Origin: Malacoraja senta
Lineage: Eukaryota
Length of the DNA stretch: 64,000 nt
Reading direction: 5' to 3'
Assembly: GCA_038087875.1 (NCBI GenBank)
Contig: CM075996.1
Coordinates: 1,366,001 to 1,430,000, forward strand
The stretch's first letter is position 1, and each line of letters starts with the position of its first letter. The position numbers and the translations under genes were made by a program. The notes beneath the pieces were generated by a model. That model saw only the letters and a list, made by a program, of their open reading frames with translations, had not been told where the DNA came from and made no database searches. Below are positions 27,473 through 61,860 of this stretch, piece by piece.

Positions 27473-27998
27473 GAAACATCATTGATCCATGTTCCCCAAG
27501 GATACTGCCTGACCCCCTGAGTTACTCCAGCACTCTGTGAAACGTCACCTATCCATGTTCTCCACACATGCTGCCTGACCCCCTGAGTTACTCCAGCACT
27601 CTGTGAAACGTCACCTATCCATGTTCTCCTCAGATGCTGCCTGACCCGCTGAGTTACTCCAGCACTCTGAAACGCCACCTATCCATGTTCTCCAGAGATG
27701 CTGCCTGACCCGCTGAGTTATTCCAGCACTCTGTGAAACGTCACCTATCCATGTTCTCCACAGATGCTGCCTGACCCGCTGAGTTATTCCAGCACTCTGT
27801 GAAACGTCACCTATCCATGTTCTCCACAGATGCTGCCCGACCCGCTGAGTTACTCCAGCACTCTGTGAAACGTCACCTATCCATGTTCTCCACAGATGCT
27901 GCCTGACCCGCTGAGTTACTCCAGCACTCTGTGAAACGTCACCTATCCATGTTCTCCACAGATGCTGCCTGATCCGCTGAGTTACTCCAGCATTCTGT
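27473..27998 (+). repeat. About 8 x 66-bp tandem array
   Basis: Same unit as 4643-4970; preceded by a degenerate hammerhead-like core and a Penelope 3' region. Confidence 0.92.
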
Positions 27999-28807
27999 GT
28001 CTTTCCTGTTTGGAATGGTTGATGAAACAACTAAGATTCTTAGAGTTGTACAGCATGGAAACAGGCCCTTTGGCCCAACATGCCCATGCCGTCCAAGAAG
28101 CCCCATCTACACTAGTGCCACCTGCCCACGTTTGGCCCATATCCCCCTAAACCTTTCCTATCCATGTATCTGTCCAAATGCGTGGTAAATGTTGTTATAG
28201 TACCTACCTCAACTACCTGCTCTGGCAGATCACTGCATGGAAAAAGTTGCCTCTCAGGTTCCTATTAAATCTTTCCCATCTCAACAGTGTCCCCTTGTTC
28301 TTGGTTCCCCCTATTCTGGGTCAAATACTTCATTGTGGTTAGAACCATGCTTATTGAACCTGGCATGGAAAGGTAACCTGATAGGGGTGGCTACCCATCT
28401 TGAGTCAAGACTGAATATCATTTGGGTTTTATTGGTGTTTGAAGAAGAAGGAAATGAAACAAGTTGTGATTCTTGGTAGTGTTGGGGTGATTGTTTTGAC
28501 AAAAATAAAAGCTCTTTTCACTAATTATAAGCCACAAATGTTCTTGTCAGTGTTGGAAACATCTTCCTGTAAAGTCTCTCATTGTGAAATAATGACTCTC
28601 CCACACTCGGTTTGATCCTTTGATTTGTAGCTGGATCTTTGGCTGAAGTTACCAGTTTATGCTGAATATGTTGGAGACTTGTTGCGGGCGCACTTTACCT
28701 AATTCTCCTACTGAAGTGACATTTTCAATTTTCCGATCTGGGACCTGTTCAAGCAAGCCCATTGCAATAAGAAGAGCGCGTAGTACGCTTTTTGTAACGT
28801 AGTTCGA

Positions 28808-29186: not shown

Positions 29187-29334
29187 GGCAAAGACAGAAC
29201 TAAAGAAAGAGACAGACCCATTCAAACAAAAGGTGCTGGATGGTCGACAACTAGCACTGAAAGTGAGTGCCAATTCAGTGTATGGTTTCACTGGAGCACA
29301 GGTTGGCAAGTTGCCTTGCCTGGAAATATCACAG
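29187..29334 (+). CDS. POLD1: POLD1 coding exon (equiv. exon 17), polymerase motif B
   Basis: cag|GGCAAAG...TCACAG|gtgagt; 148 bp; [49 protein letters not shown]. Confidence 0.97.
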
Positions 29335-29814
29335 GTGAGTTTTGGCATTCTCTTTCTCCTCCCCAACCCTGTCTCCATGACTTTGCAAAATAAGCTTTAT
29401 GGATGAATAGTTTTAACCTATAAATCATGTACAATGTTATTTATGAGTTTAGTTTATTGTCACGTGTACCGAGGTACAGTGAAAAGCTTGTGTTGCTTGC
29501 TAACCAGTCAGCAGAAAGACAATACATGATTACAATCCACCCATCCACAGTGTACAGATACATGATAAGGGGAATAATGTGAATTACGTTTAGTGCAAGG
29601 TAAAGTCTGATTAAAGATAGTCCACGGATCTCCAATGAGCTAGCTCGGGACTCCTCTCTAGTTGTTGGTAGGATGATTTTGTTGCCTGATTCAGCCGGGC
29701 AGATAAGCGGTTATATAGGTTGTGCGATTCAGAGAGGACTTGATCTTACTGTTTTAGTTGGAAAGTTGCAAGTTAATTGAGCTGCAAGAATTCGTAGGGC
29801 TTACTGAACACTTA

Positions 29815-30122
29815 TGGGCCTGTCCCACTATACGAGTTTACCCAAGAGCTCTCCCGAGTTTAAACAAAAATCAAACTCGTGGTAAGCATGTCAAATGTAC
29901 GTTGCGGGTACGTCGGAGCTCGAGGACGTCTCTTAGCGGCTCGTATCGCTAACGGCAGGTTCTCGGGAAACGCGGTAAGCTCGTGAAGATTTTTCAACAT
30001 GTTGAAAAATGTCCACGAGAGCCCCGAGTACCCACGAGCGGCCATTACCGTAAATCTCCGAGTTCGAATCAGGGGAAACTCGGGAGAACTCTTGAATTAG
30101 CTCGTACAGTGGGACAGTCCCA
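29815..30122. mobile_element. 308-bp PIF/Harbinger-type MITE
   Basis: 22-bp TIRs with 2 mismatches (tgggcctgtcccactatacgag / ctcgtacagtgggacagtccca); TTA TSD at 29812-29814 and 30123-30125. Confidence 0.88.
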
Positions 30123-30782
30123 TTAGTTCAATGTTAAACATTTTTGTAACTGACGTTAACACAAGTCTAGAGCAGGGCCAGTAAGCCAGGAGTGGATTTC
30201 TCTGGCAAGTTATGTCATTGAATTGACTTAATTTTGGCAAGTCACAGTCAACACAGGGAAGACTCATGGGTAGATGTCAAAGTGAAGATGGTTCCAAAAA
30301 TGCATTCTATAAAAGAGATTTTGTATCCATAACTCATCTTGCCAACAGTCTGGTTCCAGTGAAGAGCTGGCAGGCACACACCTCTAATTTATTATTTGGG
30401 TTGCCACCTCATAGAAAGGATGGGAGAAAGTTACAAATTAGACCTTTTTTTATGGCATTAGTACAGAATAACAGGTGCTCCCGCCCCAATGTCAATGCCG
30501 ACCACAGTGTCCCCGACTAATCTCTGCCTACATGTGATCCGTATTCTTCTCCATCCACGCCTCCTCCTCCTCCCCCATTTCAGAATGGTGAATGAAAAGA
30601 AGCTGATGATGCTTGATCACAATAGCCATGAAATGGAATGCATACTTCTCACACACACACACACTCCAGAGTGGCTTGTGATTCAGCTAGCATTTCATGT
30701 GACAAGTATTTCTTAATCAAAGGACTAGCCTCATAGAATAGGCTATAGAATAAATAGCATTAACTGGAATTTTAGATCAATT

Positions 30783-31046
30783 TTAGTTTTGGAGATACAG
30801 CGTGGAAACAGGCCCTTCGACGCACCGAGTCTGTGCCGACCGACAGAGACCCACCCGTACACTAGGTCTATCCAAGACCAGGGGCAATATGCAGAAGCCA
30901 GTTGACATACAAACCTGCACGCCTTTGGAGTGTGGGAGGAAACCAGAGCGCCCGGAGAAAACCCACACAGTGGCAGAGGGAATATGTAAACCTGGTTCTC
31001 TGGCTCTGTAATGCAGCAACTCTACCGTTGCGCTACCATGCCACCC
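30783..31046 (-). mobile_element. HE1-type V-SINE
   Basis: Reverse complement of consensus. Confidence 0.8.
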
Positions 31047-34000
31047 AATTATGGAAACATTTTCTCTAGTCTATCTTTTGACATGAATGATGTGCAACGT
31101 CAGGGAGCAACAGAAGAAAGAGAAATAAGCCTGGGAATGTAATATTTCGGTATTGTACATAATTGTGAAACAGAACTAAAATAATACAATGGTATTTCTC
31201 TTCCAGGAATGAGTAAAAACTAAAAGCACAAAAAGGGAAGCATTGACTTGTTGATATTTAATCGCGATGGGAACCATATTACACCATTGAAAGAACTACT
31301 TCTCACAAGAGAGAGATCATAGAATGCCAAGATTTTTTAAATGGCCATGACATATTAGTGTGTAGGAAGGAACTGCAGTTGCTGGTTTACACCGAAGATA
31401 GACACAAATGCTGAAGTAACTCAGCGGGACAGGCAGCATCTCTGGCTAGAAGGATTGGGTGACGTTTTGGGTCAAGACCGAGTTTGAAGAAGGGTCTCGA
31501 CCTGAAACATCACCCATTCCTTCTATCCAGATATGTTGCCCGTCCCACTGAGTTACTCCAGCATTTTGTGTCTATCAACGCCATAACATGCTATCTGTGT
31601 AATGGAAAGGATTGTTGTAGATGGTGCATGGGAAGAAAATCTCCAAGATAGATACAAAGTGCTGAGTAATTCAGCGGGATAGTCTGAAGAAGGGTCTTGA
31701 CCTGAAACGCCACTCATTCCTTCGATGCAGAGTTGCTGCCTGTCCCGCTGTGTTGATTTACTCCAGCATTTTGTGTCTATCTTCGGTGTAAACCAGCATC
31801 CGCAGTTCCTTCCTACACAAGAAAATCTCCAAGTTCTTGTGATGTGATTTAGAATGGAAATCACTTTCAAAATAGAATTGGATAATGACAGCAATAGACA
31901 ATAGGTGCAGGAGTAGGCCATTCGGCCCTTCAAGCCAGCACCGCCATTCAATGTGATCATGCAGCTAAATAGATCACTCTTACTATGCTGTGCAACATCT
32001 CGAGGGGCATGAATAAAGTGAATGTTCACAGTCTTTTCCCCCAGGGTAGAGGATTCTAAAACTAGAAGGCACACCTTCAAGGGGAGTGATATAAGAGGGA
32101 GCTTGTGGGCAACCTTTTTCTATCTATCTCTGGAATGAGCTGCCAGAGGAAGCTATAGATGTGGATTTAATTTTGAGTTTTAAAATAAACCTGGACGGAT
32201 GTGGAAGAGAGATACAGTCCAAATGCAGGCAAATGGGACTAGTCCAGTATGGACAAGATGGACCGGATGGTATATTTCCATGCTGTACAGCTGCACTGGT
32301 AGCCTTATTAACTACTATAAATCCAACCTTGTTGTGGGAAAGTGGTAAAATAATTAAGGGGGAGTTGAGAGAGACTTAAGTTGTAGTTCTCCGAGGAGTT
32401 AGGGGATGATTGGTATTGTTCTGTTTAGGAACTGACACTAAATTAATGGGCAAAATGGCTTCCTGCATTGTAATATGTAAGTGAAGTTTGCAGACAAACT
32501 ATCTTGGATCCCCTCTGGCCAAGTGCCTGTCTAACGCTCCTGTCTCCTGCAGCTACTAAGTCAAATGGGAGCCAACCCTAATGTTTCAGTGGGACATCCA
32601 TTTTTAAATGTAGCCAGGTCTTATTGAGCTTGTGTTAGTAACTAGAACGGAGCAGGAGGAAGCTCAGTATTATATACAGAAGCAAAAATAGTGGCACAAT
32701 TCTTTCCTCCAAGATTTAGCACCATTCTTGGCTCCTGAGGGTGGGCATATTTTATCCTGGTTATACCCCATGTCACAGCGCTCCAGGTATCAGCCTGGGT
32801 TTAGATTGCTATGTAGGGCAGAGTCCTGCAAATGGACAATAGGCAGTGTCATCAGAACATTGTAATTGTGCAAGACATCTTTTTTTTATAAGTATCTTAC
32901 TGCAAGATCCTGATAAATGGCAATCTGGTTCTGAGCTGCAAAATAAATTGATTTTCATCTTTGTGCAGATAACCATGACTGAAGCATAAATTATATTGTT
33001 TTCATTATATCCTTCATAATACCTGGAAATCTGGTGATTTTTTAACATACAAGCAGGTAAATAATGTACAGGAAGGCACCATGCCGTATATCTAAACTAA
33101 CGACCCAAGGTGAGAGCAGTAGGTAGGAAACACAAGCATGTTTACAGGGTATCCTCTTCAATGTGAGGTTAGCATAACTTAGCAAAATAAACCACAGGCA
33201 TGTGATAGGAGATTTTTGTCAATCTGTGGGCAAAGAACTGTTGAAACAGCGCAACGCTTAAACGTTACAACACAGAAATTTAACTCTTGAACGATGAGTC
33301 ATTGCCACGTTGATTGAAATGTAACACTTTGCTGCCATTTGTTCAGTCAACAACTTAACCTGATTGTACATTAAATTCTTGTGACAATTCTTTAAATTAT
33401 CGGGTTTTTTTCCCCCATCCCAAATTCCTTCTGGATGCCTGATCATAGGGAGGTTTTGTTCCAAATGTACAGGGTGTGTTGAACCCGCACCAGGAATACT
33501 GTCCCCTCACCTAAAAAAAAGATACGGTGGCATGGAAGCTTCACTAGGCTATCTCCTGGGATATCTCCTGGGATGAGAAGGCTGTCTTACCGAAATAAAA
33601 ATCCGATATTTTGGCCTGTATTCCTTGGAGTTTAGAAGAATGAAGGTGACCTAATTCAAACGTATCCTAAGGAGGCTTGATAGATAGATCAATATAGCTT
33701 GATAGCATAGATGTTGGGGTGTTTTCATGAGTGGGAGAGTCTCGGACAGGAGAACATAACGACATGGTAAAGGGCAGGACAGTTAAAACTGAGGTACGTG
33801 GAAATCTACAACAAGAAGTTGTTGAATCTCTGGAAGATCTCTTGGCTGGTGGAAGCAGGATCATTCGCAGTGTTTAAAATGTTTAGTTCAAAGAATAGTG
33901 AGAGAGGAATGAGAGAATAGATAAGGTGAATGAAGTATTTTACCCAGGATAGGGGAATGAAGATTAGGGTTAAGGTTTTAATAGGAAGCTGAGGGGCAAT

Positions 34001-35064
34001 ATTTTCACTCACAGGGTGGAGGGTGTACGGAACAAGCTATCAGGTGAGCTATTGAGCCAGCTATTTAGCAGCATTTAAAAGATACTTACATGGATAGGAC
34101 AGGTTTAGAGGGTCCGAAAGTGGACCAATTGGACTAGCTTAGATGGGGCATCTTGGACGGCATGGACCAGTTGGGCCAAAGGACCTGTTTCCATGCTGCT
34201 AGATTTTGAATGGCACAGCAGAGGAAATGAGACCAGCATAGATCAGCCTGCATCATATTGGATGGTGGGGCAGGCTCAAAGGCTTATTCCAGCTCCTATT
34301 TTCCTGTACTTTGTGATGGGTAGTTTGCTGCCTGGCCTTGCTAAATGTTACTATGGAACTGGCTATCAGATACTGTAAAGGAGCAGCATTGGAGGACATC
34401 CCTACATGTCAGGGGATATGGGGAGAAGGCAGGAACGGGGTACTGATTGGGGATGATCAGCCATGATCACATTGAATGGCGGTGCTGGCTCGAAGGGCCG
34501 AATGGCCTACTCCTGCACCTATTGTCTATTGTCTAAGCAACTTTGAGTAATGTTGCTCAGTTGTTCTTGTCAACATGTGTCTCCCAGATGATCGCAGTTC
34601 CTTGAATGATTCCAACGTTCACTCCTCGAGATGAGTTTTGTGCATCTTTGACTCAATCATTGTAAATGTTGAAGCTGCTTATTTTCAAGACTTCACCAAA
34701 TGTATTAAAGTATAAATTTGAATGATCAAGGGTCCGGTTCTAGTAGAGACAGAGAGATTATTTGTGATCAACAGGACAGAGGAGTTTATCAGAATTGCTG
34801 AATGTAATTTTGCGGAAAAGTTGTGTCTAAATTTTCGAGATAATGCTCGGTTGGTACAAAGTTCTACCTCAAATTTCAAAATGTTTTTGATAAGGTATCG
34901 TACAAACTACCATGGCAGATAAAATCTGTGGTATTGGTGGAATTGCTACAGCAGCTGCACAACTGGCTGCATTCTGATTGTGAAAAAAAACCAGAACATA
35001 TTGTTGAGGCTGCCCAACATGTCCGGCTACATCTGTGGAGGGTGAAGCAGAGCTCATGGTAGTC

Positions 35065-35500
35065 AAGTCATGTCAAGTCAAGAGAGTTTATTGTCATGTG
35101 TCCCAGATAGGACAATGATATTCTTGCTTGCTGCAGCATGACAGTATATAGTAAGCATAAATACAGAACAGTTCAGTGTGTCTATATATCATAAACAATA
35201 TATATACACATAAATAAACAGATAAAGTGCAATAGGCTGTTATAGTTCAGAGTTTGTTTGATGGTGAGTTTAATAGCCTGATGGCTGTGGGGAAGCAGCT
35301 GTTCCTGAACCTGGATGTACCAGATTTCAGGCTCCTGTACCTTCTACCTGATGGCAGCGGAGAGATGAGTGTGTGGCCAGGATGGTGTGGGTCCTTGATG
35401 ATGCTGCCAGCCTTTTTGAGGCAGCGACTGCGATAGATCCCTTCGATGGTAGGGAGGTCAGAGCCGATGATGGACTGGGCAGTGGTCACAACTTTCTGCA
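35065..35500 (-). mobile_element. Rex1/Babar-like LINE 3' fragment
   Basis: QKVVTTAQSIIGSDLPTIEGIYRSRCLKKAGSIIKDPHHPGH...PSGRRYRS; near-identical to 41575-41815. Confidence 0.85.
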
Positions 35501-36051
35501 TTCTGCAACAACGACCCTTCATCAGAACTGTAACAGTGAGAGAACACGTGTTTAATGTTGCGGAGAAGGGGGTGGCCGACAAGAATGTCTGTTATCTACT
35601 GCAACAAAGTCTGAAGAAGGGCCCTGACCCAAAATGTCCTCTGTCCATTCCACTACACAATGTTCCACCAGTTGCTCATGATTCTAGCATCTACAGTCTC
35701 AGTACGGGTGTCAGAGGCTGTGGGGAGAAGGCAGGGGAATGGGGTTAGGGGGGGAGAGATAGATCAGCCATGATTGAATGGCGGAGTAGACTTGATGGGC
35801 CAAATGACATCATTCTACTCCTATCCCTTATGACCTTATGAGGAGTCTCCAGTCTGAAGAAGGGTCCCATCCCAAAATGTCTCTGTCCATTTCCCTGCAC
35901 AGATGTTGCCTGACCCGCTGAGTTTCTCCAATACTTTTGGGGTTTTTTCCTCAAGATTCTAGCATCTGCAGCTTGTTGTGTTCAGCCAGGGTATCTTAGC
36001 TGACGGAACTGAGAGATACTGAACTGAACAGTAGCTGGATACCTGAAGTAA

Positions 36052-36364
36052 ACGGTGGCGCAGCGGTAGAGTTGCTGCCTTACAGCGAATGCAGCGCCGG
36101 AGACCCGGCTTCCATCCCGACTACGGGTGCTGTCTGTAGGGAGTTTGTACTTTCTTCCCGTGACCTGCGTGGGTTTTCTCTGAGATCTTCGGTTTCCTCC
36201 CACATTCCAAAGACGTGCCAGGTTTGTAGGTTAATTGGCTTGGTAAATGTAAAAATTGTCCCTAGTTGGTGAAGGATAGTGTTAATGTGCGGGGATCGCT
36301 GGTCGACGTGGGCCCGGTGGGCCGAAGGGCCTGTTTCCGCGCTGTATCTCTAAACTAAACTAAT
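36052..36364 (+). mobile_element. HE1-type V-SINE
   Basis: Full-length consensus match. Confidence 0.88.
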
Positions 36365-38780
36365 ACTTAAAATATTCAGCAGGCAGAGGACAAACATGGA
36401 GGGAGGACAACCTCTACATATGGGCGAATCATTGTGGCTCAACTTATATTGAGCCTCCTGCAGAGTCAGGGTGTTTTTTCAAGACATATTTCACAATCAT
36501 GGTGCCACACATTCACACAACACTTTCATTTCTTATTTTTCGGCTTTTTTTTCTAGGAAAGAACACACAACGGTACAGCACGGGAAGAGGCCCTTTGTCC
36601 CGCAGAGTGTCTGTACCGAGCAATGATGCCAAGTTAAACTAACCTCTGTCTGCATGTGATCCATTTCCCTCCATGTCCACGTGCCTATCTAAACGCCTCT
36701 TAAACACCTCTCTTCTACCTGCCTCCATCGCCATGTTTAAAAAAAAAAAAGCATTTGGACAGATACATAGATAGGATAAGTTTGGATGGATACGGGCCAA
36801 ATGCGGGCAGGTGGGACTAGTGTGGAGGGGGCAAGTTGGGCTGAAGGGCCTGTTTACATGCTGTATGACTCTATGACCACCCCTGGCAACAGGTTCCAGG
36901 CACTCGCCATTCTCCATGGAGAACAAGCTTGCTCTGCACATCTCCTTAAGCTGTTTCCTCTAGACTTTGACATTTCCACCCTGGGAAAGATATAAAAAAT
37001 TACTGACATTTAATTCTTGCCTCTCTGGATCACTTTTTAGTTTGGTAATAGTTCAGATGGTGTCATGTCACTGATTGTCTTTTCGAGGTGAATGGAGCCT
37101 AATTTATTTTTATCTGCCTCCAAATTTGCAGCAAGTCTTCCCAAGAGATGACAAGATCCTTCCCAAGGATTACTCTGCCACCCCCACCCTCATTCCCCCC
37201 TCCCTGTCTCACACTGATGTGTGCTAGGTTGTGATTTCCCACCGTGACTCAAATTCGTTGAAATATCAGACAAATCGGTCCGGACTTTCCTTTTTAGGAC
37301 TCAGCTGTTCACAGCCTTAATCAGCTGAGCTGTCAAAAGAGCTAGGTTTGTTTTGAGCAATGCTGTCATTCATTTCTCATTGCACTTTGCAGAAGTTATT
37401 CCCTATTTTGGGGTAGTTTAGTCTTTGACTATTATCTCAAATTTAAACAGAAAAAGCCTCATGAAAAGAACCTTCCTGTTGTGAGAAGGAACATTGTAAA
37501 AGTAATTTCTTATTGTTCCTGAATGTGGAGAGTGGAAAATCACAGCTAATTGTTACAAAAAATGACAAATTTGATGTTCGTGCGATTTAGAATTTTCTTA
37601 CGTAAGTCTTTGATTAGTACGTGTGTCAAGGGTTATGGGGAGAAGGCAGGAGAATGGGGTTAGGAGGGAGAGATAGATCAGCCATGATTGAATGGCGGAG
37701 TAGACTTGATGGGCCGAATGGCCTAATTCTACTCCTATCACTTATGACCTTATGAGCTTAAGTGTATAACACTAGTTAGCATCAAGGAGTTTTACGTGAA
37801 GCAGCTGGTTGTAATTCTGTTTGAAAGTGCCATTAGTTCCATTCTCTTGACTCTGCTTTCTGAACAAGCAGTTGGGTTTAAGAAGGAACTGCAGATGCTG
37901 GAAAATCGAAGGTACACAAAAATGCTGGAGAAACTCAGCGGGTGCAGCAGCATCTATGGAGCGAAGGAAATAGGTAACGTTTCGGGCCGAAACCCTTCTT
38001 CAGACTGGGTTTTATGGGTGGCAAGGAGTATTGGTGGCAATAAATTCTGCAGGTCCTCCCCAGAAGGACTTGAGTGAAACCTCTTCCCTTCCTGCCGTTG
38101 TGCTTGAGCGGAGAGGGAAGGGCAGTGACACAAGGAACTGCAGGTGTTGGAATCTTGAGTAAGACACAAGTGCTGGAGTAACTCAGTGGGTCAGGCAGAT
38201 TCTGTGAGGCAGCAGCTCTACCAACGATGGAAATATTTTCTCTAGTCTATCACTTGCCACTCCTTTATTAAGTTGTATTTATTTCAATGTGTGGTCTGCT
38301 GACACTAACGTAGGAGCTTTGCGTTGTAGGAACTGAACTATGACTGTTTGATGTTTTACCCTCAACAATCTTTATTGAGAAGCTTTATTCTCCCTGAAGT
38401 GAAAATTGCAAGGGTTTTCAAAAAGAGTTGAAAAAAAAAAGAAAAAAAAGCTTTTAACATGCGTCTGCATGAAAGGAAGTTTGATAGCAAAGATGTCAAG
38501 TTGGCGGAGGGTGGGCCAGGGCCTTATGAAACCAGTGGTATGAAAGTGCTGACACTAATTACATGCCTCTCCCCATCCATAGTGTCAACTGAAACACTGT
38601 ATAACCAACAAAGTATTATGGACCGAACGAATGGTAACGTTTCAGTGTGTATAAAGGAACTGCAGATGCTGGTTTAAACCAAAGATAGACATAAAATGCT
38701 GGAGTAACTCAGCGGGACAGGCAGCATCTCTGGCGGGAAGGAATGGGTGACATAGAAGATAGATATATAAGGTTGTGTGA

Positions 38781-38980
38781 AGGTGTGAACACATTTCATT
38801 GTTGAAGAATAAGTATCATGATCTTTCTAACTTTTTGTGGTACCTTCGTGTACAGAGATTTGCCACCACATCTGGGTTTATGTTGCCAGATGTGGTGGGA
38901 AATCTTTGTTGATGAAGGTACCGCAAAGAGTTAGAAAGGCTGTGATACTTAATCTTCACCAGTGCACTGAAATGTCACCT
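38781..38980 (+). other. ~200-nt imperfect inverted repeat / RNA hairpin in intron 17
   Basis: Arms 38781-38875 and 38886-38980; 10-nt loop gtttatgttg; core ccaccacatctgg / ccagatgtggtgg. Confidence 0.85.
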
Positions 38981-39084
38981 CCCATTAGGTGCTGAAGTGG
39001 AGTGACTACTCACTTCAGGTGAGGACACTTCTGTGCTTCATTGAGACTTCCGTTCAACTTCCAACCATTCACTGGGTGCAAAAA

Positions 39085-39249
39085 GCTGGAGTAACTCAGC
39101 AGGACAAGCAGCATCTGTGGAGGGAAGGAATGGGTGACATTTCACAGAGTGCTGGAGTAACTCAGCAGGACAGGCAGCATCTGTGGAGGGAAGGAATGGG
39201 TGACATTTCACAGAGTGCTGGAGTAACTCAGCAGGACAGGCAGCATCTG
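39085..39249 (-). repeat. About 2.5 x 66-bp tandem array, variant unit
   Basis: Units share private variants (cagcaggaca, gagggaaggaatgggtgacattt) but have the same tttcacagagtgctgg junction. Confidence 0.88.
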
Positions 39250-41159
39250 AAGCAAAATGGAGGCACAAGGAACTGCAGATGCTGGAATCTTGAGCAAAAC
39301 GCAAAGTGCTGGAGGAATTTGGGTGGTTCAGGTGGCATCAGTGGACAACATTGCCTGTCCATTCTCTCCACAGATGTTGCCTGATGTACTGAGTTCCTCC
39401 AGCACTATGTTTTGCTCTATCTCGTGCAAGGTTGCTGCCAGCTCCACCAGAACAAACACTGCTGGTCTGCTTTGTTTGTACACCTCTGGATGATGGTATG
39501 GTATGATGGAATGTTATATTTCATCTACTGTAATTCAATATTCCGGTTCCTATTTTATGAATATTTTTAAACACTGCCCCTGTGGGATGCAGTGATGCTT
39601 TATTTACCCCTTACAAAAACCCCCAAGTTTCCTTCAGCATATGTTTGTCTTGTTGCTTCTCTGCGTGCCTCTAAACTGCCAGGTGTAGGCAGCCGGGATA
39701 CTGCACTGGTCGCTTGGCGAATAGATCATCGATGATTTAACAAGAGCTTTGACCGCAAATCTTGCAGCTTGATCGTTGGGAAAGAGATGGTTGATGTAAG
39801 CCAAGTTACAAAAAATAAAATGATGCAATTTGTGAGCTGTGTTGTAAGCCCCTCACTGTTGGGGTGGGTGGGGTGGGGAGGGCTGCACTGTGGAGGGGTG
39901 CTATGGCAATGGTTGGCTGGTGTCTGTCTGTGTGTTATTTAGTTTGAATGCAAACAGTCCTCAGGAAACGGACAGTTTCCAGCTTTCCTGTGGTAAAGCC
40001 TTGCTTCCTGCCTGATACACACCCCGCCACTGCCGTGCAGCACAGTTGGACTCAAGGCCTGTTGCTCCATTGCAAAATGGATTGCAAAATTGATTTGAAT
40101 TTCAGTTGAAGGCACTTGTCCTTCCATTGTCCTCTCCTGGGTTCACCCGAGCTGACTTCTTGCAGAGTTGTTTCCATATCCATCAGCTGCCCCCTTGCGC
40201 TGCACCCACATGGACAATCCTTGCATCAATGTCCAAATTGTGTCTTATAATTCTGTTAGATCATGGCGACCATCACTGGCCAGGAAAAGCTTTTAGTCAC
40301 CTGGCGTTAGATATGCATCCTCTCCAGGAAGTGGTCAGTACAATGATTGGGAGCAGGAAACCTCGCTGATATTCCTCTCTTGTTTTTCCTCTATCCCCTC
40401 CGTTCCAACTCTTTTGGTGAACTTTCAAGAGCAAGTATCTATGGTGAGCATCATCTCAGTCATTTTGTGCTTGGCACGCTCTCAGCAGAGGTGACCGAAC
40501 AGCAACAAGCAAACTGCAAATGTAATTGTATTCCAATAGTTGCCTGAAGGGTTTTGGATTGCCAGCCTCCCAATGTTGCACAGTGCCATTGACTGTATCC
40601 ATGCTAACTCAATGCCTTACGTTGGGCAGGCAAGTCAGGGCCACAGGGATTTACCTCCCTCGGTGTTAAGCACGTCTGAAACTCTTCAGTAATAATCACA
40701 TTAGTTAATACATGATATCCAGCGAGCAGTCATAGCTTGATCAACATGTGACAATCTATTTTGCTCAATATTGTTCAGCTTCTGCATGGGAAATGAGTCA
40801 AGAGCTGTTTTCAGAATGCCTGGTTCATCGCACTGTTTCAGTATAGGTGTCCTGGAAGGAAGTATGAGCATAACAAAAGGCAATGCTGCCACCCAGGATG
40901 TTGGAGGGCAAACTCTCAGTGACAGAAGGCATCTTCCAGTGTACTGGAGAATAGAAGAAGGGGCAGTGTTTGTAGAAGGGTCTCGCCCCGAAACGTCACC
41001 CATTCCTTCTCTCCAGAGATGCTCCTGTCCCGCTGAGTTACTCCAGCACCTTGTGTCTAGGATGGATCTCATAACTTGCTTTCGATAGCACGATTGTAAC
41101 CAATTCTCCCACAATAACCTCATAGGTGTTTGACCTCATTACACCTCATTAACCTCATT

Positions 41160-42350
41160 AGGGGGCAGCATGGTGGCGCAGTGGTAGAGTTGCTGCACCA
41201 GAGACCCGGATTTGATCCTGACTACAGATGCTATCTGTAGCATCTGTAAACACCAGCAAAACCAAGGAACTGATTGTGGACTTTGGAAGGAGTAGGATGG
41301 GGACCCACAGTCCTGTTTATATCAACGGGTCGGGTTGAAAGGGTCAAGAGCTTCAAATTCCTGGGCGTGCACATCTCTGAAGATCTTTCCTGGTCCGAGA
41401 ACACTGATGCCATTATTAAGAAAGCACATCAGCGCCTCTACTTCCTGAGAAGATTACGGAGAGTTGGTTTGTCAAGGAGGACTCTCTCTAACTTCTATAG
41501 GTGCACAGTAGAGAGCATGCTGACCGGTTGCATCGTGGCTTGGTTCGGCAACTTGAGCGCCCTGGAGAGGAAAAGACTACAAAAAGTAGTAAACACTGCA
41601 CAGTCCATCATTGGCTCTGACCTCCCTTCCATCGAGGGGATCTATGACAGTCGCTGCCTCAAAAAGGCTGGCAGTATCATCAAGGACCCACACCATCCTG
41701 GCCACACACTCATCTCCCTGCTACCTTCAGGTAGAAGGTACAGGAGCCTGAAGACTGCAACGACCAGGTTCAGGAACAGCTACTTCCCCACAGCCATCAG
41801 GCTATTAAACCTGGCTCGGACATAACACTGAACTTTATTAGCCAATACTGTTATTTGCACTTTATCAGTATATTGATTCATGTGTGTATATATTTATAGA
41901 ATGCCTTGTAGTCAATGCCTTCTATGTTCTGTTGTGCTGAAGCAAAGCAAGAATTTCATTGTCCTATCAGGGACACATGACAATAAACTCACTTGAACTT
42001 GAACTATCTGTACAGAGTTTGTACATTTTCCTCGTGACCTGCCTGCGTTTTCTCTGGGTGCTACGGTTCCCTCCCACACTCCAAAGATGGGCAGGTCTAG
42101 TCTGAAGAAGGGTCTCTACCCGTAACTTCATCTATTCCCTTTCTCCAGAGATGCTGTCTGTCTGAGTTACTCCAGCTTCATGTGTTTACCTTCGGTTTAA
42201 ACCAGCATCTGCAGTTCCTTCCTAAAGGCTTGTAGGTTAATTGGCATCTGTAAATTGTCCCGAGTGTGTGTAGGATAGTGTAAGTGATCGCTGGTCAGCA
42301 TGGACTCGGTGGGCTGATGGGCTTGTTTCCACGCTGTATCTCCAAAGTCT
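41160..42350 (+). mobile_element. HE1-type V-SINE split by Rex1/Babar and Penelope-end insertions
   Basis: Head 41160-41239; body resumes at 42004; Penelope end at about 42100-42222. Confidence 0.75.
41240..42003 (+). mobile_element. 5'-truncated Rex1/Babar-like LINE
   Basis: VERVKSFKFLGVHISEDLSWS...KKAHQRLYFLRRL...PSGRRYRS...FPTAIRLLN; (cttgaa)n tail; 9-bp TSD CTATCTGTA (41231-41239, 42004-42012). Confidence 0.88.
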
Positions 42351-42374
42351 AAAATGTCTCCAATGACAGGACCA

Positions 42375-42389
42375 GACACACACACACAA

Positions 42390-42430
<41 letters not shown>

Positions 42431-42438
42431 TGCGCGCG

Positions 42439-42474
<36 letters not shown>

Positions 42475-42526
42475 GATGCACACACGCACACACCCACACG
42501 CACGCACGCACGCACACATGCACACA
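42375..42526. repeat. Compound (CA)n microsatellite
   Basis: Direct reading. Confidence 0.95.
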
Positions 42527-42784
42527 AACAAGAGGTCTAGATGGTCTGGAACAAATGACTCACTTCCTGACTTGAAATACTTCCATTTGCAAAATACAAA
42601 TCCAGGAATATGATAGAAATCTCTTCCCTACATTAACAAATTTCTGTTAATACCCATAGGGTTTTCAAAATGTATGATAGTCCAAATTAGGTTATTGCTG
42701 TTAAAATGAACAACATGCAGCCATTTTGAGTGCAGCAAACCTCTCGGTACAGTAAAGTGATAACAACTTTGGTGGATCTACAAG

Positions 42785-43085
42785 CAGCAGCGGGTAGAGC
42801 CACTGCCTCTCAGCGTCAGAGACCTGTGTTTGATCCTGATCTTGGCTGCTGTCTGTGTGGAGTTTGCACTTTCTCCACGTGACCACGTGGGTTTCTCCTG
42901 GTGCTCCAGTTGCCTCCCACATCCTAAAGAGATACGGGTTTGTAGGTTACCTGCCCTCTGTAAATTTCCCCTAGTGTGCAGGGAGTGCATGAGAAGTTGG
43001 GATAACGTAGAACTGGTGTGAACGGGTGATCAATGGTCAACTTGGTCTCGGTGGGCCGAAGGCGGTTTCCATGCTCTCTCACTGA
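42785..43085 (+). mobile_element. HE1-type V-SINE (older copy)
   Basis: Consensus similarity. Confidence 0.75.
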
Positions 43086-43225
43086 ACCGAGCTGCACTGG
43101 TTTATTTGTGTGCTCAGTGCGTCTTGTGTGAAGAGTGGATGGAGCACCTCATCTTGAATTCAGTCCATAAACTCCCATCCCAGGGATCAGTAGATGATTT
43201 GTTGAGAACATTACCAGACCACAGT

Positions 43226-43526
43226 CATGGTGGCGCAGCGGTAGAGTTGCTGCCTTACAGCGAATGCAGCGCCGGAGACCCGGTTCAATCCCGACTACGG
43301 GTGCTGTCTGTACGGAGTTTGTACCTTCTCCCCGTGACCGCGTGGGTTTTCTCCGAGATCTTCGGTTTCCTCCCACACTCCAAAGACATGCAGGTCTGTA
43401 GGTTAATTGGCTTGGTAAATGTTAAAATTGTTCCTAGTGTGTGTAGGATAGTGTTAGTGTGCGGGGATCGCTGGTCGGCGCGGACCCGGTGTTTCCGCGC
43501 TGTATCTCTGAACTAAACTAAACTAA
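43226..43526 (+). mobile_element. HE1-type V-SINE
   Basis: 8-bp TSD ACCACAGT (43218-43225, 43527-43534). Confidence 0.9.
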
Positions 43527-44509
43527 ACCACAGTGCTATGGGGAATGAAGTTGCTTCTCTAAGCCAGTGGTTCCTTTTGCAAAGCAGATTATAAATGTCA
43601 AGCCCACCATTGACAAATGTCAGGGTCCTTGATGGTAGCACATATTGTGCAAATTACGGGTACAGTGCCTGCAACTCTGGATAACCTGGTGTCTGTATTC
43701 TCTAAAGTTATTGCTACTCTCTCGTCCAGCTTGTTCAGTAGATGCGCCTACATTTTAGCTCCGTTCACAGGCACGACGGTGCCGTGGTTCTCTACCATGG
43801 GGTTTTCTAGCCTCAGTCAAGATTTGTACATTTGTGGTTTAATTCTCTATTTGTGTTTTATTTCTGAAAGTTGTGCTCAGTACAAGGGCTTTCACAAAAC
43901 ACGACACCTTTGAAGGCTACAACCGCACTCAGCACCTGTTTGATGTGGTATAGATCAAAAACTGAGTGGAGCTTTGTCAGCCCCAGGCTCTCTGCTAATT
44001 GTGCTTGCTGCCCTGTAGTTGCAGTCTGAAGCTATAGTGGGATACTGTAGAACACACATTCCCCAACTAGACTTGACCGATCATCTGAATTTTAACGTTT
44101 TGGCAAAATTGGGTGGTGAATCTGTGGAATTCTTTGTCACAGACGGATGTGGAGGCCTAGTCAGTGGATATTTTTATGGCAGAGATAGATAAATTCTTGA
44201 TTAGTATGGGTGTCGGGGGGGTTATGGGAGAAGGCAGGAGAAATGGGGTTAGGAGGGATATATAGATCAGCCATGATTGAATGACGGAGTAAACGATGGG
44301 CCGAATGGCCTAATACTGCTCCTATTCCATATGACCTTATAAGCCTAGGTTGTTTGGACCATCAAGACGTAGTCTATTATTTCCATCGGAACCATCCAGT
44401 CTAATGGAGACGCAAGGAACTGCAGATGGATACAAGAGCTGGAGTAACTCAATGGGTCTGGCAACAACTGTGAAGGAAATGAATAGGTGATGTTTCAGGT
44501 CGTGGCAAT

Positions 44510-44806
44510 CACGGCACAGTGCACATCGGTAGAGTTGCAGCCTCACAGCGCCAGAGACCTGGGTTTGATCCTGACTACGGGTGCTGTCTGTACGAAGTTT
44601 GCACGTTTTCCCTGTGACCGCGTGGGTTTTCTCAGGGGGCTCCGGTTTCCTTCCACATTCCAAAGACGTGCAGGTTTGTAGGTTAATTGACTTCTGTAAA
44701 TTGTCCCTAGTGTCTAAGGCAGGGCTAGTGTACAGGTGATTGCTGGTCAGCGCAGACTCGGTAGGCTGAAGGGCCTGTTTCCACAATGTATCTCTTAACT
44801 AAACTA
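44510..44806 (+). mobile_element. HE1-type V-SINE
   Basis: Consensus similarity. Confidence 0.85.
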
Positions 44807-45318
44807 ATGGCTTGTGGCCACTGTAGCATTTCCCCTCCCCTACCCTGTGCCCCACCTGGACTCACATCCATTTATTCCGTTGCCCGTTTGAAGTTGTTTT
44901 AAATCTCGTTCCTGGGAGCAGATGTAAGTTCATTCCAGCATGCTAGACAAAAGGCAAACCGTTTCCTCTGATTATTGACTTTTCTGACACCAGTAACAGT
45001 TTATATATATTTTTTAAAACAGTGTATTCATCTTCATGCTTTTAAATGCCTCTGTAAAATCTCCCATTAAGCTTCTGGAAAATGATCTTAAATTCTTTGT
45101 TCACTTTGTGTTACATCTGACCTGGGAATACTTGTGGTCAATGGTACCAATTAAAATATCGTTTGTTTCATTCTTCCACTCATCCTCTCCTTCCCATGGT
45201 TTCATTTTAAACGTCCACCGTTCTCGTCTGTTTTTCCTTTTGCAGCTCTTTATTGCTCTTTTTTACTGTTAACATCGAGAATATATTTTAATCGGGGTTT
45301 TTTCACTTTCTCCCCCAG

Positions 45319-45414
45319 AGTGTCACTGGATTCGGGCGACAAATGATTGAGAAAACGAAACAGCTGGTTGAATCGAAGTACACCATTGCAAATGGCTACA
45401 AAGCAGATGCCAAG
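45319..45414 (+). CDS. POLD1: POLD1 coding exon (equiv. exon 18)
   Basis: cag|AGTGTC...GCCAAG|gtaagt; 96 bp; [32 protein letters not shown]. Confidence 0.97.
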
Positions 45415-46552: not shown

Positions 46553-46728
46553 GTGTATTTCCCTTACCTGCTCATCAACAAGAAGCGCTATGCTGGTCTA
46601 TATTTCTCTTCAAGCCCGAACACCCATGATAAGATGGATTGCAAGGGGATAGAGACGGTGAGAAGAGATAACTGCCCATTGGTGGCCAACCTGATCAACA
46701 CCTGCCTTCAGAAAATCTTAATTGACAG
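46553..46728 (+). CDS. POLD1: POLD1 coding exon (equiv. exon 20)
   Basis: tag|GTGTAT...GACAG|gtatcc; 176 bp; [59 protein letters not shown]. Confidence 0.97.
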
Positions 46729-48477
46729 GTATCCATTAATAGGCATCATTTCTTATGTATCTCAATTTGGAGGATTTACAATTCACCAAATGCTTACATT
46801 ACCACTGAGATGAGAGCCTGTGGGTAGAGAGAGGGTAACATATGGACACACCGATCTGTTCTGTAGTCATGCCTACTATGTTCTGTTGTGCTGAAGCAAA
46901 GCAAGAATTTCATTGTCCTATCTGGGACACATGACAATAAACTCTCTTGATCTTGAATCCAACATTTAATTTGCTCTTGATTGCTTCATACACACTTGCT
47001 TTATTGCCAACATGGATGAGGCACTCAGGTCTTGTGTTTATAGAACATTGAACCAACCCCATTAGTTTTAATTGTGATAATTCTTTAATGAATTGAAGGT
47101 GGCTCTGGCCCATTTAATTCTAATATTCAGCCCCTGTATGATGTGTGGTCACCCTCAGAGCTGTAGTTGTCCTCAGTGAGATCCTACACCATGTGAAGGC
47201 AAGATCTTCAGCAATGGACCACCACAAATCACCATGCAAGATCTGATCCAAGTAGCTGGTTCAACTTAAATGGTTTGGTTACGAATTGTTTCATTATCCA
47301 CATGCACTTCATTTTTACCGCTACTAATTGAAACATAAAATCGTTGACAATACTCAATGGACCAGGTTCCATCTGTGGAGGAGACATAGTCAATGTTTCA
47401 GATTGATCCTGGAACCATCCCAGGCTAGGACCTTATTCCTTGGAATGTGGGATGTTAAGGGGGTGATCTTGCAGAAGTGTATAAAATGATGAGGAATAGA
47501 TACAGTGAATATACAGTCTATTACCTAGGATAGGAGAGTCAAGAACCAGAAGACACAGGTTTGAGGTGAGGGGTAAATATTTAATAGGAACCTGAGCGGC
47601 AACTATTTCACACAGAGGGTGGTGGGTGTAAGGAATGATTTGCCAGAGGAGGTGGTTGAGGCAGGTACAATAACAACATTTAAAAGCCATTTGGACAGAT
47701 ACTTGGATTGGAAAGGTTTAGAGGGATATGGGCCAAAGGCGGCCAATGGGACTAGCGTAGATGGGGCATGGTGGTGGGCAAGGATGAGTGGGGTGAAAGG
47801 CAAGTTTCCGTGCTGTAACTGTTTAAAGGCCACAGCCTGCTGTTTGCCATGCGACCTTGCACTCATTGCAAGTTGTACTAAAATTTCACCCTGCAATAAG
47901 ATACAAAATCAGAGCATTCAGATTAATAATGACCGCATTATTGGTAACTTAATTCTCATAGTCCTGCAAAGTTATGTTTTCTTTCCATGAAAGCACATTT
48001 CCTATGTGTTCCAAGGGACTACCTCTTCCATGTACTGCACTTTACTTCCTCTATCCACGTGATGGGCAGGAGATATTAGCGTGCCTTCATGTTCCTATGG
48101 AGTGTCCCTGGTCTGAGAGACTATCCAGGTTCACCAAATCTGAGAGCAGTGCTAGTGTTATTGCTTTGTATTCAAGAGAGAGTTGGATGTAGCCTTGTGG
48201 CGAATGGAATCAAGGGATATGGGGAGAAAGCAGGAACGGGGGTACTGATTCTGGATGATCATATTGAATGGTGGTGCTGGCTGGAAGGGTGGAATGGCCT
48301 ACTCCTGCACCTATTTTCTATGTATGTCCTAACCTTGCCATCGTTGCCAAAAACATTAGCCATGGCTAATGATGGGAACTTTCTATAGCTCGTTGAATGT
48401 CAGGTGAAGGCTGGGCAAGTGGTGATAATCAACCTGCCTACCAAGACCTCAGTGATTGCACCTGTATTATCCACCAG

Positions 48478-56099: not shown

Positions 56100-58596
56100 A
56101 ATACTTCCCCCTAGTCCCATCTACCTGCACTCAGACCATAACCCTCCATTCCTTTCCCGTCCATATACCCATCCAATCTATTTTTAAAGGATAAAATCGA
56201 ACCAGCCTCCACCATTTCCACTGGAAGCTCATTCCACACAGCTACCACTCTCTGAGTAAAGAAGTTCCCCCTAATGTTACCCCTAAACTTCTGTCCCTTA
56301 ATTCTCAAGTCATGTCCCCTTGTTTGAATCTTCCCTACTCTCAATGGAAAAAGCTTATCCACGTCAACTCTGTCTAACCCGCTCATAATTTTAAAGACCT
56401 CTATCAAGTCCCCTCTTAACCTTCTGCGCTCCAAAGAATAAAGACCTAACTTGTTCAACCTTTCTCTGTAACTTAGTTGCTGAAACCCAGGCAACATTCT
56501 AGTAAATCTCCTCTGTACTCTCTCTATTTTGTTGACATCCTTCCTATAATTAGGCGACCAAAATTGTACTCCATACTCCAGAATTGGCCTCACCAATGCC
56601 TTGTACAATTTTAACATTACATCCCAACTTCTATATTCAATGCTCTGATTTATAAAGGCCAGCACCCCAAAAGCTTTCTTTACCACCCTATCTACATGAG
56701 ATTCCACCTTCAGGGAACTATGCACAGTTATTCCTAGATCCCTCTGTTCAACTGCATTCCTCAATTCTCTACCATTTACCATGTACGTCCTATTTTGATT
56801 TGTCCTGCCGAGATGCAGTACCTCACATTTATCAGCATTAAACTCCATCTGCAATCTTTCAGCCCACTCTTCCAAATGGCCTAAATCTCTCTGTAGACTT
56901 TGAAAATCTACTTCATCATCCACCACACCACCTATCTTAGTATCATCTGCATACTTACTAATCCAATTTTCCACACCATCATCCAGATCATTGATGTACA
57001 TGACAAACAACAGTGGACCCAACACAGACCCCTGAGGCACCCCACTAGTCACCGGCCTCCAACCTGACAAACAGCCATCCACCATTACTCTCTGGCATCT
57101 CCCATTCAGCCACTGTTGAATCCATCTTGCTACTCCACCATTAATACCCAACAATTGAATCTTCTTAACCAACCTTCCATGAGGAACCTTGTCAAAGGCC
57201 TTAGTGAAGTCCATATAGACAACATCCACTGCTTTACCCTCATCAATTTCCCTAGTAACCTCTTCGAAAAATTCTAGAAGATTAGTCAAACATGACCTTC
57301 CAGGCACAAATCCATGTTGACTGTTCCTAATCAGACCCTGCTTATCCAGATGCTTATATATATTATCTTTAAGTATCCTTTCCATTAATTTGCCCACCAC
57401 TGACGTCAAACTAACAGGTCTATAATTGCTAGGTTTACTCTTAGAACCCTTTTTAAACAACGGAACAACATGCGCAGTACGCCAATCCTCCGGCAATATT
57501 CCCGTTTCTAATGACATTTGAAATATTTCTGTCATAGCCCCTGCTATTTCTACACTAAATTCCCTCAATGTCCTCGTGAATATCCTGTCAGGACCTGGAG
57601 ACTTATCCGTTTTCATATTTTTCAAAAGTGTCCGCACCTCCTCTTCTTTGAATCTCATAGTTTCCATTGCTACTCTGCTTGTTTCCCTTACCTCACATAA
57701 TTCCATATCCTTCTCCTTGGTGAATACCGAAGAAAAGAAATTGTTCAGTATCTCCCCCATCTCTTTTGGCTCTGCAGATAGCTGTCCACTCTGACTCTCT
57801 AATGGACCAATTTTATTCCTTGTTATCCTTTTGCTATTAATATAGCTGTAGAAACCCTTTGGATTTACTTTCACCTTACTTGCCAAAGCAACCTCATATC
57901 TTCTTCTAGCTTTTCTAATTTCTTTCTTAATATTCTTTTTACATTCTTTATACTCCTCAAGCACCTCATTTACTCCATGCTGCCTATAATTATTGTAGAT
58001 CTCTCTCTTTTTCCGAACCGTGTCCAATTTCCTTTGAATACCATGGCTCTTTCCAATTTTTACTATTTCCTTTCAACCGAACAGGTACATAAAGATTCTG
58101 TACTCTTAAAATTTCACCTTTAAATTTCACCTCCATTTCTCTTCTACATCCTTCCCATAAAACAACATGTCCCAATTCACTCCTTTTAAATCCTTTCGCA
58201 TCTCCTCAAAGTTAGCCTTTCTCCAATCAAAAATCTCAACCCTAGGTCCAGTTCTGACCCTCTCCATAATTATATTGAAACTAATGGTATTGTGATCACT
58301 GGACCCGAAGTGCTCCCCAACGCTTACCTCCGCCACCTGCCCGGTCTCATTTCCTAACAGGAGGTCCAGCACTGCCCCTTCTCTAGTAGGCACCTCTATG
58401 TATTGCTGCAAAAAACTATCCTGCACACATTTTACAAACTCCAAACCATCCAGCCCTTTTACAGAATGTGTTTCCCAGTCTATGTGTGGAAAATTGAAAT
58501 CTCCCACAATCACTACCTTGTGCTTACTACTAATATCTGCTATCTCCTTACATATTTGCTCTTCCAATTCTCGCTCCCCATTTGGCGGTCTATAAT
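55988..58596 (-). mobile_element. Young 5'-truncated CR1 (HER1-like) LINE
   Basis: APE endonuclease C-terminal part (VIVGDFNFP, SDHNTI) at 58127-58567, RT ORF at 56111-58027, (ggttatat)n tail; truncated at YRPP. Confidence 0.93.
56111..58027 (-). pseudogene. CR1 ORF2 reverse transcriptase remnant (638 aa open; separated from the endonuclease by frameshifts)
   Basis: KSPGPD, NYRPVSLTS, QHGF, DFTKAFDKVPH, GVPQGSVLGPLLF, KYADD motifs. Confidence 0.9.
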
Positions 58597-58702
58597 GTCA
58601 TCACTGGAGTTATTACAGTGTGTAAATCAGAAATGTGAATGGTTTAATTGGAATTATTGTTAATCTGACTGTTTTGTTCCATTTCTTGTTGCTGACATGC
58701 AG

Positions 58703-58805: not shown

Positions 58806-59155
58806 GTAGCCATGTTTTCAGTTTGCTTGCAAATTTGGTCTTGTGTTGTTCTTGTACTTGTTCTGGGACATGCTGGCGTAAGGTGTGTGCGGACTCGGTG
58901 CGCCAAAGGCTCTTTCCACACTGTATCTCTAAACTAAACTAAACTGCCAGGCGACACCAAATGCACATTCTAGATTTTTTTTTAAACAACACAAATTGCT
59001 GGAGTAACTCAGCAGGTCAGGCATCACCTCTAGACCACGTGGAGAGACGACTTTTGTGTCGGGACCCTTCTTCAGACTGTAGCGGTGAGAAGAGGCTGGA
59101 AGAGAACAGCTTTCTTCCCCATCTCTGCAATCAGTCTGAAGAAGGGTCCTGACCC

Positions 59156-59460
59156 AAAACGCCATCTATCCATGTTCTCCACAGATGCTGCCTGACCCGC
59201 TGAGTTACTCCAGCACTCTGTGAAATGTCACCTATCCATGTTCTCCACAGATGCTGCCTGACCCGCTGAGTTACTCCAGCACTCTGTGAAACGTCACCTA
59301 TCCATGTTCTCCACAGATGCTGCCTGACCCGCTGAGTTACTCCAGCACTCTGTGAAACGTCACCTATCCATGTTCCCCACAGATGCTGCCTGACCCGCTG
59401 AGTTACTCCAGCACTCTGTGAAACGTCACCTATCCATGTTCTCCACTGATGCTGCCGGCT
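59156..59460 (+). repeat. About 4.5 x 66-bp tandem array
   Basis: Same unit; follows the core at 59136. Confidence 0.9.
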
Positions 59461-61461: not shown

Positions 61462-61589
61462 TTTCTTCTTGCGTATAGCGTGCACAGCCTAAAGTTGTAG
61501 AACAACTTGTTCTATTTGATTGTGCACGCCGGGTTGATTGCATTCGTCGAAACAGAGCGGACCATGTGAAGGTTGCAATCTCCCACCCC
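61462..61589 (-). mobile_element. (AAG)n-tailed short retroposon inside a CR1 fragment
   Basis: Reverse complement of 606-748 with a small internal deletion. Confidence 0.75.
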
Positions 61590-61720
61590 TTCCATGCCCC
61601 TTATGATTTTATACATCTTAATAAGTTCAATTGTATTTTTGCTTTCTGCAGTTTAATACATTTATGCAGTTAGCATAAATTCATTCCTGTTTCTGATTCT
61701 GCATTTTGTAAGTGAAAATA

Positions 61721-61860
61721 GGGGTGGGAGATTGCAACCATCACGTGGTCCACCCTGTTTCAACGAATGCAATCAACCTGTCGTGCAGAATCAAATAAGA
61801 TCAAACAGAACCAGTTGTCTTACAACTTTAGGCTGTCCACGCCATATGCAAGAAGAAGAA
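61721..61860 (+). mobile_element. (AAG)n-tailed short retroposon
   Basis: TGAAAAT direct repeat at 61713-61719 and 61861-61867. Confidence 0.78.

What the first reader, a model, noticed from the sequence alone, without database searches (positions are those of the whole stretch)
38781..38980. Long intronic hairpin with G-U-biased mismatches on the transcribed strand
Seen: about 90-bp arms around a 10-nt loop, in sequence unlike any other repeat in the window. My manual alignment of the central ~75 bp gives about 8 differences that are G-U wobbles on the + strand, 1 A-C, and about 5 other mismatches. Inference: neutral decay of a DNA palindrome should give G-U and A-C roughly equally. The skew suggests selection on the + strand RNA fold, as for a pre-miRNA/endo-siRNA hairpin, an ADAR substrate or a splicing element in the 16-kb POLD1 intron. 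A second small hairpin (ctgaagt-gagt/actc-acttcag) follows at about 38992-39018. The counts are small.
Basis: partly seen in the sequence, partly recalled or inferred. Interest (0 to 1): 0.72.

Follow-up and report, generated by a model that had tools for sequence, protein, structure and literature searches.

The report
Decaying single-copy palindrome in POLD1 intron
This is a real, single-copy 168-base fold-back deep in a POLD1 intron, shared by related species but changing about as fast as nearby intron DNA, so it is most likely an old inverted duplication that is decaying, not a conserved functional RNA.

Summary
The hairpin is real. Arms 38797-38875 and 38886-38964 (79 bp, no gaps) enclose a 10-nt loop: 65 Watson-Crick pairs, 8 G-U, 1 A-C, 5 other mismatches; fold z is about -14. 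It lies mid-way in a 15,984-nt POLD1 intron on the + strand. Contigs of four other organisms each cover the stem as one copy (three fully, one partly), so it is orthologous and not a member of a detectable MITE family. It is not visibly constrained: in organism H 6/168 stem sites differ against 18/394 flank sites (P 0.66; rate ratio 0.78, CI 0.31-1.97). Five of six variable stem sites toggle pair/mismatch, none is compensatory, two indels hit the stem, and the second small hairpin is deleted in one species. The G-U skew is borderline (P 0.02-0.05; about 0.05 across the window's 12 fold-backs), and 4 of the 14 mismatches look like one event. No Rfam family or complete Microprocessor signature. 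Best reading: an old local inverted duplication (template switch or fold-back) drifting nearly neutrally. Past or weak selection on the RNA fold stays possible; no RNA data could be examined.

The parts
38797..38875 (+). left arm of the fold-back (79 nt)
38876..38885 (+). 10-nt loop
38886..38964 (+). right arm (79 nt), 65 WC + 8 G-U pairs with the left arm
38781..38980 (+). widest extent including the poorly paired outer 15 bp on each side
38815..38822 (.). 8-nt perfect mini-palindrome in the left arm; its right half is the cluster of 4 adjacent mismatches (3 G-U, 1 A-C), likely one event; organism B has a 3-nt deletion in it
   Evidence: table 4
38992..39018 (+). second small hairpin: weak on +, 11-nt deletion of its right arm in organism D
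   Evidence: table 4
29335..45318 (+). host intron of POLD1 (15,984 nt, GT-AG)
29187..29334 (+). upstream POLD1 exon (human residues 669-717, E 6e-22)
45319..45414 (+). downstream POLD1 exon (32 aa; with the 46-aa exon at 46320 it fills the gap to residue 797)
38644..38755 (.). fragment of a very high-copy repeat flanking the hairpin on the left
39085..39417 (.). tandem 66-nt units of the same repeat family flanking the hairpin on the right

Best explanation
This is a single-copy inverted duplication of about 80 bases in a POLD1 intron that likely arose once, by a replication template switch or fold-back synthesis before these related species split, and is likely decaying close to neutrally. 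SHOWN: gap-free 79-bp arms that are 18% apart (JC 0.20); one copy per genome in four other organisms; stem divergence not distinguishable from flank; placed stem changes mostly make or break pairs; indels in the stem. INFERRED: the perfect palindrome is roughly four times older than the split between the window's organism and organism H (0.20 against 0.047); the origin is a template switch (no pre-duplication outgroup was seen); the nascent intron will fold here and may be edited by ADAR as a by-product, like the other fold-backs of this pre-mRNA; the G-U excess is a chance draw helped by a mild strand bias and by having been picked out.
For:: depth over 38840-38959 is one contig in B, D and H (one extra short piece in one bin of B) and in the part covered in I, while the same call laid pieces only about 80% alike (21 of 108) on the neighbouring repeat. 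H differs at 6/168 stem sites and 18/394 flank sites (P 0.66); whole-contig counts 17/389 v 23/457 (B), 17/361 v 23/459 (D), 15/361 v 26/461 (H), P 0.42-0.87 (these include repeat-derived ends). Of 6 placed stem differences, 5 toggle pair/mismatch, 1 gives C-G to U-G at a CpG, 0 are compensatory. Indel events 2/168 in stem v 6/394 in flank (P 1.0). Apical 62 nt: 3/62 v 18/394 (P 1.0). No TSD of 3 nt or more at symmetric ends 38775-38799. No Rfam match at gathering score. The window has 11 other local fold-backs, two more stable per base. Template switches made over 6,000 such hairpins in primates and at least 18 became miRNAs (PMC10710096, abstract and first two of six parts read).
Against: G-U:A-C 8:1 against an even background (P 0.02; 5:0, P 0.03, if the cluster is one event; 0.046 across 12 fold-backs). 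No indel between the arms in the window's copy (P about 0.055) and no gap in H's 361-nt contig. Rate ratio CI 0.31-1.97 allows threefold constraint. Stem transitions are fewer (1 v 6.0 expected, P 0.018) and transversions more (5 v 1.7, P 0.03) than plain neutrality predicts (post hoc). Differences shared by the window and H are 8 G-U to 4 pair-breaking, recent ones 1 to 5 (P 0.13). 24 of 64 difference rows were not shown, so some B and D changes are unplaced.
Confidence: 0.6

Rival explanations
1. A long intronic dsRNA hairpin under weak or former selection on the + strand fold (ADAR substrate, Dicer-type hpRNA/endo-siRNA source or co-transcriptional structure), now possibly relaxed.
For: 8 G-U to 1 A-C on the transcribed strand against 273:269; + strand folds 26 kcal/mol better than -; older differences mostly G-U, recent ones mostly pair-breaking (P 0.13); none of the 6 placed changes makes an A-C; arms gap-free in the window and in H.
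Against: Stem rate not below flank; 5 of 6 placed changes toggle pair/mismatch; no compensatory change; 2 indels in the stem. Another fold-back of the window (10778-10852, a repeat) shows 5:0 G-U and a larger strand gap per base. Two of the G-U sit at decayed CpG sites.
Confidence: 0.18
2. Relic of an old palindromic MITE or fold-back transposon whose other copies are lost or have diverged below 80% identity.
For: The window is rich in palindromic repeat elements; arm divergence of 18% puts sister copies near the 80% limit used.
Against: Single-contig depth over the stem in four genomes although 80%-alike pieces were laid elsewhere in the same call; no second copy in the window; no TSD of 3 nt or more at symmetric ends; no Pfam hit in 19 of 19 nearby frames.
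Confidence: 0.14
3. A lineage-restricted intronic miRNA cut from the apical 55-60 nt.
For: Apical part folds well (38850-38911, -39 kcal/mol, z -8.3), loop 10 nt, intronic and sense; a UG lies 14 nt before two of 12 registers tested; template-switch hairpins in introns do give miRNAs (PMC10710096).
Against: The stem is 79 bp, not about 35 bp with single-stranded flanks. No GHG in 12 of 12 registers; CNNC in 1 of 12, at a 48-nt register. Positions 38866 and 38899, mid 5p and mid 3p arm, differ between species; apical divergence equals flank. Best Rfam miRNA score 31 bits against a cut-off of 88.
Confidence: 0.06
4. A splicing-regulatory structure for the flanking POLD1 exons.
For: It lies on the sense strand of the intron.
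Against: 9,462 nt from the donor and 6,354 nt from the acceptor; self-contained fold; not conserved above flank.
Confidence: 0.02

Closest known systems
Template-switch-generated intronic hairpins (Monttinen, Frilander, Loytynoja 2023, PMC10710096)
   Same: Single-copy inverted repeat with short loop, intronic, sense to a host gene, lineage-limited as far as seen; a possible second small switch inside the stem.
   Different: Arms of 79 bp are at the long end (that paper's examples are 28 and up to 83 nt); the pre-event ancestor was not seen here; no small-RNA evidence.
Long inverted repeats as hpRNA/siRNA sources (LIRBase, PMC8728187; search listing and start of abstract only)
   Same: Long imperfect inverted repeat that would fold when transcribed; that catalogue lists 6.6 million in 424 eukaryotic genomes.
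   Different: No siRNA output shown here.
Canonical vertebrate pri-miRNA (MirGeneDB, PMC11701709 section 9 part 1; PMC6943042 passages)
   Same: 10-nt apical loop, well-paired apical 22-bp duplex, intronic.
   Different: Stem more than twice the canonical 35 bp, no GHG or usable CNNC, would-be mature arms vary among close species.
Palindromic MITEs and ancient fold-back repeats such as Eulor/MER (recalled, no call)
   Same: Near-complete palindrome of about 170-200 nt.
   Different: No second copy detected at 80% or more in four genomes; no TSD.

Membership tests
canonical miRNA | stem of about 35 bp with single-stranded basal flanks | tested here: not met
   79-bp continuous stem; criterion from PMC10710096
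canonical miRNA | apical loop of about 10 nt or more and a paired 22-nt duplex | tested here: met
canonical miRNA | Microprocessor motifs (UG, GHG/CmR, CNNC) | tested here: inconclusive
   12 registers on +: UG in 2, GHG in 0, CNNC in 1 (48-nt register). Many real miRNAs lack some motifs (recalled).
canonical miRNA | 20-26 nt reads from both arms with 2-nt offset | not testable with these tools
   no RNA holder listed
conserved miRNA family | match to a known family; arms conserved above flanks | tested here: not met
   3/62 v 18/394
MITE / fold-back transposon | many dispersed copies | tested here: not met
   single-contig depth in 4 of 4 runs at 80% likeness; older copies below 80% not testable
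MITE / fold-back transposon | target-site duplication | tested here: inconclusive
   none of 3 nt or more at symmetric ends 38775-38799; 2-nt TSDs not scored and true ends are eroded
conserved structured RNA | compensatory or pair-keeping substitutions | tested here: not met
   0 compensatory, 1 pair-keeping, 5 pair/mismatch of 6 placed; small sample
ADAR substrate / hpRNA | long dsRNA on the transcribed strand | tested here: met
   predicted fold
ADAR substrate / hpRNA | A-to-G edits or phased siRNAs in RNA reads | not testable with these tools
   no RNA holder listed
template-switch inverted duplication | single locus, inverted arms, short spacer | tested here: met
template-switch inverted duplication | outgroup with the pre-event, one-arm sequence | not testable with these tools
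   no eukaryote genome search; all four laid organisms carry the palindrome where covered

The most novel reading that the evidence does not exclude
An undescribed, lineage-restricted 79-bp intronic hairpin RNA in cartilaginous-fish POLD1 that was shaped by selection on its sense-strand fold (ancestral state about 75 of 79 pairs, older differences 8 G-U to 4 pair-breaking) and yields endogenous siRNAs or a recruited ADAR site, with constraint now relaxed or favouring scattered mismatches that keep it from being a perfect duplex.
Probability: 0.15. Interest if true: 0.55.

Novelty: new member of a known kind. Interest (0 to 1): 0.2.

Why it matters
As a decaying inverted duplication it matters little: such hairpins are common raw material in introns. 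If the G-U skew did reflect selection, it would be a datable case of a long vertebrate hairpin RNA gaining and losing function inside an essential replication gene, testable with existing skate and shark genomes and small-RNA data.

Tried and rejected
No whole genome is held for this window, so copy number was judged from contigs of relatives, not from its own assembly. Rfam: 0 matches at gathering score in 64 kb; 12 weak matches at E up to 10 around the hairpin, all far below cut-off, best mir-5681 at 31 of 88 bits, on both strands, rejected as generic hairpin scoring. No RNA holder listed among 24 runs; this says nothing about expression. Organism I covered only 38858-39013 of the stem region and none of the flank, at depth 2.8. 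Pattern scans: stem pattern 0 matches in viral and 0 in metagenome contigs; a 20-nt loop pattern gave 3 metagenome matches with only 20-28 nt alike, rejected as chance. Pfam: 0 families in 19 of 19 nearby frames. Earlier findings of the scan: nothing by place, sequence or words. Paper searches for this element found nothing relevant: POLD1+intron+hairpin+shark 0 papers; cartilaginous fish+microRNA+hairpin+skate 4 unrelated; elasmobranch+small RNA+novel miRNA 4 unrelated; these cover only the held open library. Strand mutation bias alone does not explain 8:1: composition ratio 1.14-1.26 moves P only to about 0.027. An origin from an ADAR-edited, retro-copied RNA was considered and dropped: the G of the G-U pairs shows no common neighbour and two are CpG decay.

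Full report
Observation. The hairpin is present as described. The core arms are 38797-38875 and 38886-38964, with no gap, around a 10-nt loop. On the + strand there are 65 Watson-Crick pairs, 8 G-U, 1 A-C and 5 other mismatches. A looser alignment reaches 38781/38980 with 8 G-U, 2 A-C and 11 other mismatches. The fold of 38760-39030 is -137.3 kcal/mol on + (z -14.1) and -111.7 on - (z -13.1), better than all 200 shuffles on each strand. The second small hairpin is unremarkable on + (17 of 200 shuffles as good) and stronger on - (1 of 200).

Setting. Exons at 29187-29334 and 46553-46729 match human POLD1 residues 669-717 and 797-855. The 32-aa and 46-aa exons between them fill the gap, so the intron is 29335-45318, 15,984 nt, GT-AG. 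The hairpin is 9,462 nt from the donor and 6,354 nt from the acceptor. It sits between two pieces of a very high-copy repeat and has no copy in the window. The window is at least 34% repeats and has 11 other local fold-backs, all in repeat-like sequence; two fold more stably per base. That the organism is a skate is my recall of these repeats, not a tool result.

The G-U skew. The neutral expectation is about even: 273 G-U to 269 A-C in 37 disjoint inverted repeat pairs of the window (this set includes the hairpin itself), and 56 to 59 in 10 pairs inside the gene. One-sided P is 0.020 for 8 of 9 and 0.055 for 8 of 10. Intron strand composition (ratio 1.14-1.26) raises the first to about 0.027. 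The chance that any of 12 fold-backs is as skewed is 0.046. Four adjacent mismatches (38819-38822) form the right half of a perfect 8-nt mini-palindrome and are likely one event; without them the count is 5:0, P 0.031. Two G-U lie at decayed CpGs. A repeat-derived fold-back at 10778-10852 shows 5:0 too. The skew is thus real, modest and was selected for notice.

Other organisms. Words of 38760-39085 are held by 22 of 24 listed runs from 10 coded organisms in 12 studies; one may be the window's source; no holder is on record as RNA. The list may be cut at 24, so it does not show absence in distant species. I laid 4 of the 22 (organisms B, D, H, I) on 38210-39084 at 80% likeness. Over 38840-38959 depth is one contig in each, with one extra short piece in one bin of B and partial cover in I; pieces only about 80% alike were laid on the neighbouring repeat. 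B, D and H also cover the left flank, on a separate contig. So the palindrome is single-copy and orthologous as far as contigs show.

Constraint. 40 of 64 difference rows were shown. By the per-run totals 5 rows of H are unshown; their letter kinds fit the repeat edge at 38752-38756 (4) and one unplaced change, so H's stem list is probably complete (inference). Some changes of B and D, and one of I, are unplaced. H differs at 6/168 stem sites and 18/394 flank sites (poly-A run 38425-38450 left out): P 0.66, ratio 0.78, CI 0.31-1.97. The six placed stem differences are 38810, 38866, 38925 (pair to mismatch), 38899, 38910 (mismatch to pair) and 38847 (C-G to U-G at a CpG); none is compensatory. 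B has a 3-nt deletion and B and D share a 1-nt deletion in the left arm; D lacks 11 nt of the second hairpin's right arm. Indel rates match the flank. Against plain neutrality: the stem shows 1 transition where 6.0 are expected and 5 transversions where 1.7 are expected (P 0.018 and 0.03, post hoc); older differences are 8 G-U to 4 pair-breaking and recent ones 1 to 5 (P 0.13); H's 361-nt contig has no gap; the window's arms have no indel between them (P about 0.055). These hints keep past or weak selection open but rest on six changes whose direction is not rooted.

Mechanism. Arm divergence (JC 0.20) is about four times the window-H divergence (0.047), so a perfect palindrome likely formed well before these species split. 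A template switch makes such a structure in one step; PMC10710096 (abstract and parts 1-2 of 6 read) reports over 6,000 such hairpins in primates, at least 18 of which became miRNAs. I take this as the likeliest origin, untested for want of an outgroup. The pre-mRNA would fold here and may be edited, but that needs no selection.

Known families. No Rfam family. As a miRNA it has the loop and duplex but a 79-bp stem, no GHG in 12 of 12 registers, CNNC only in a 48-nt register (motif definitions from PMC11701709 section 9 part 1 and passages of PMC6943042), and variable mid-arm positions. As a MITE it lacks copies and a TSD. Searches found no paper on it; papers and 30 other than those named were seen as listings only. 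No supplements were read.

Verdict. Real, single-copy, orthologous, not shown to be constrained. Neutral relic of a local inverted duplication 0.60; weak or former RNA-level selection 0.18; old transposon relic 0.14; young miRNA 0.06; splicing element 0.02. Interest 0.2.

Noticed in passing
window 1161, 7215, 10816, 31684, 49990 (+); 20367, 27370, 38003, 63640 (-): The abundant repeat family, often arranged as fold-backs, carries a hammerhead-like core with a short palindromic helix III region: 9 matches against 0-1 in 20 base shuffles. This resembles the minimal hammerheads of Penelope-like elements (PMC4209133, passages; no skate or shark mention found in its main text). Rfam gave no hammerhead match at one copy; helix I was not checked.
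   Followed up: partly
window 61463-61857: A 395-nt element with about 128-bp terminal inverted repeats (114 WC of 128), MITE-like.
   Followed up: no
window 29810-30127: MITE-like element with about 52-bp terminal inverted repeats and an internal 40-nt palindrome (29980-30019); a related palindrome lies at 16201-16246.
   Followed up: no
window 56111-58072 (-): 653-aa open frame that reads like a CR1-type LINE reverse transcriptase, with an endonuclease-like frame at 58127-58597 (family recalled, not scanned).
   Followed up: no
window 27611-28030, 39085-39249, 59131-59526, 4618-4906: Tandem arrays of a 66-nt unit derived from the high-copy repeat, in both orientations, 90-99% alike across the window.
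   Followed up: no
window 38862/38899 and 38866/38895: Both lineages have one G-G mismatch in the apical helix, but at different places: 38862/38899 in the window, B and D; 38866/38895 in H and I.
   Followed up: partly
window 38780-38802: A few high-depth contigs from elsewhere match this short stretch just left of the core arm in all four runs; chance or an old repeat edge, unresolved.
   Followed up: no
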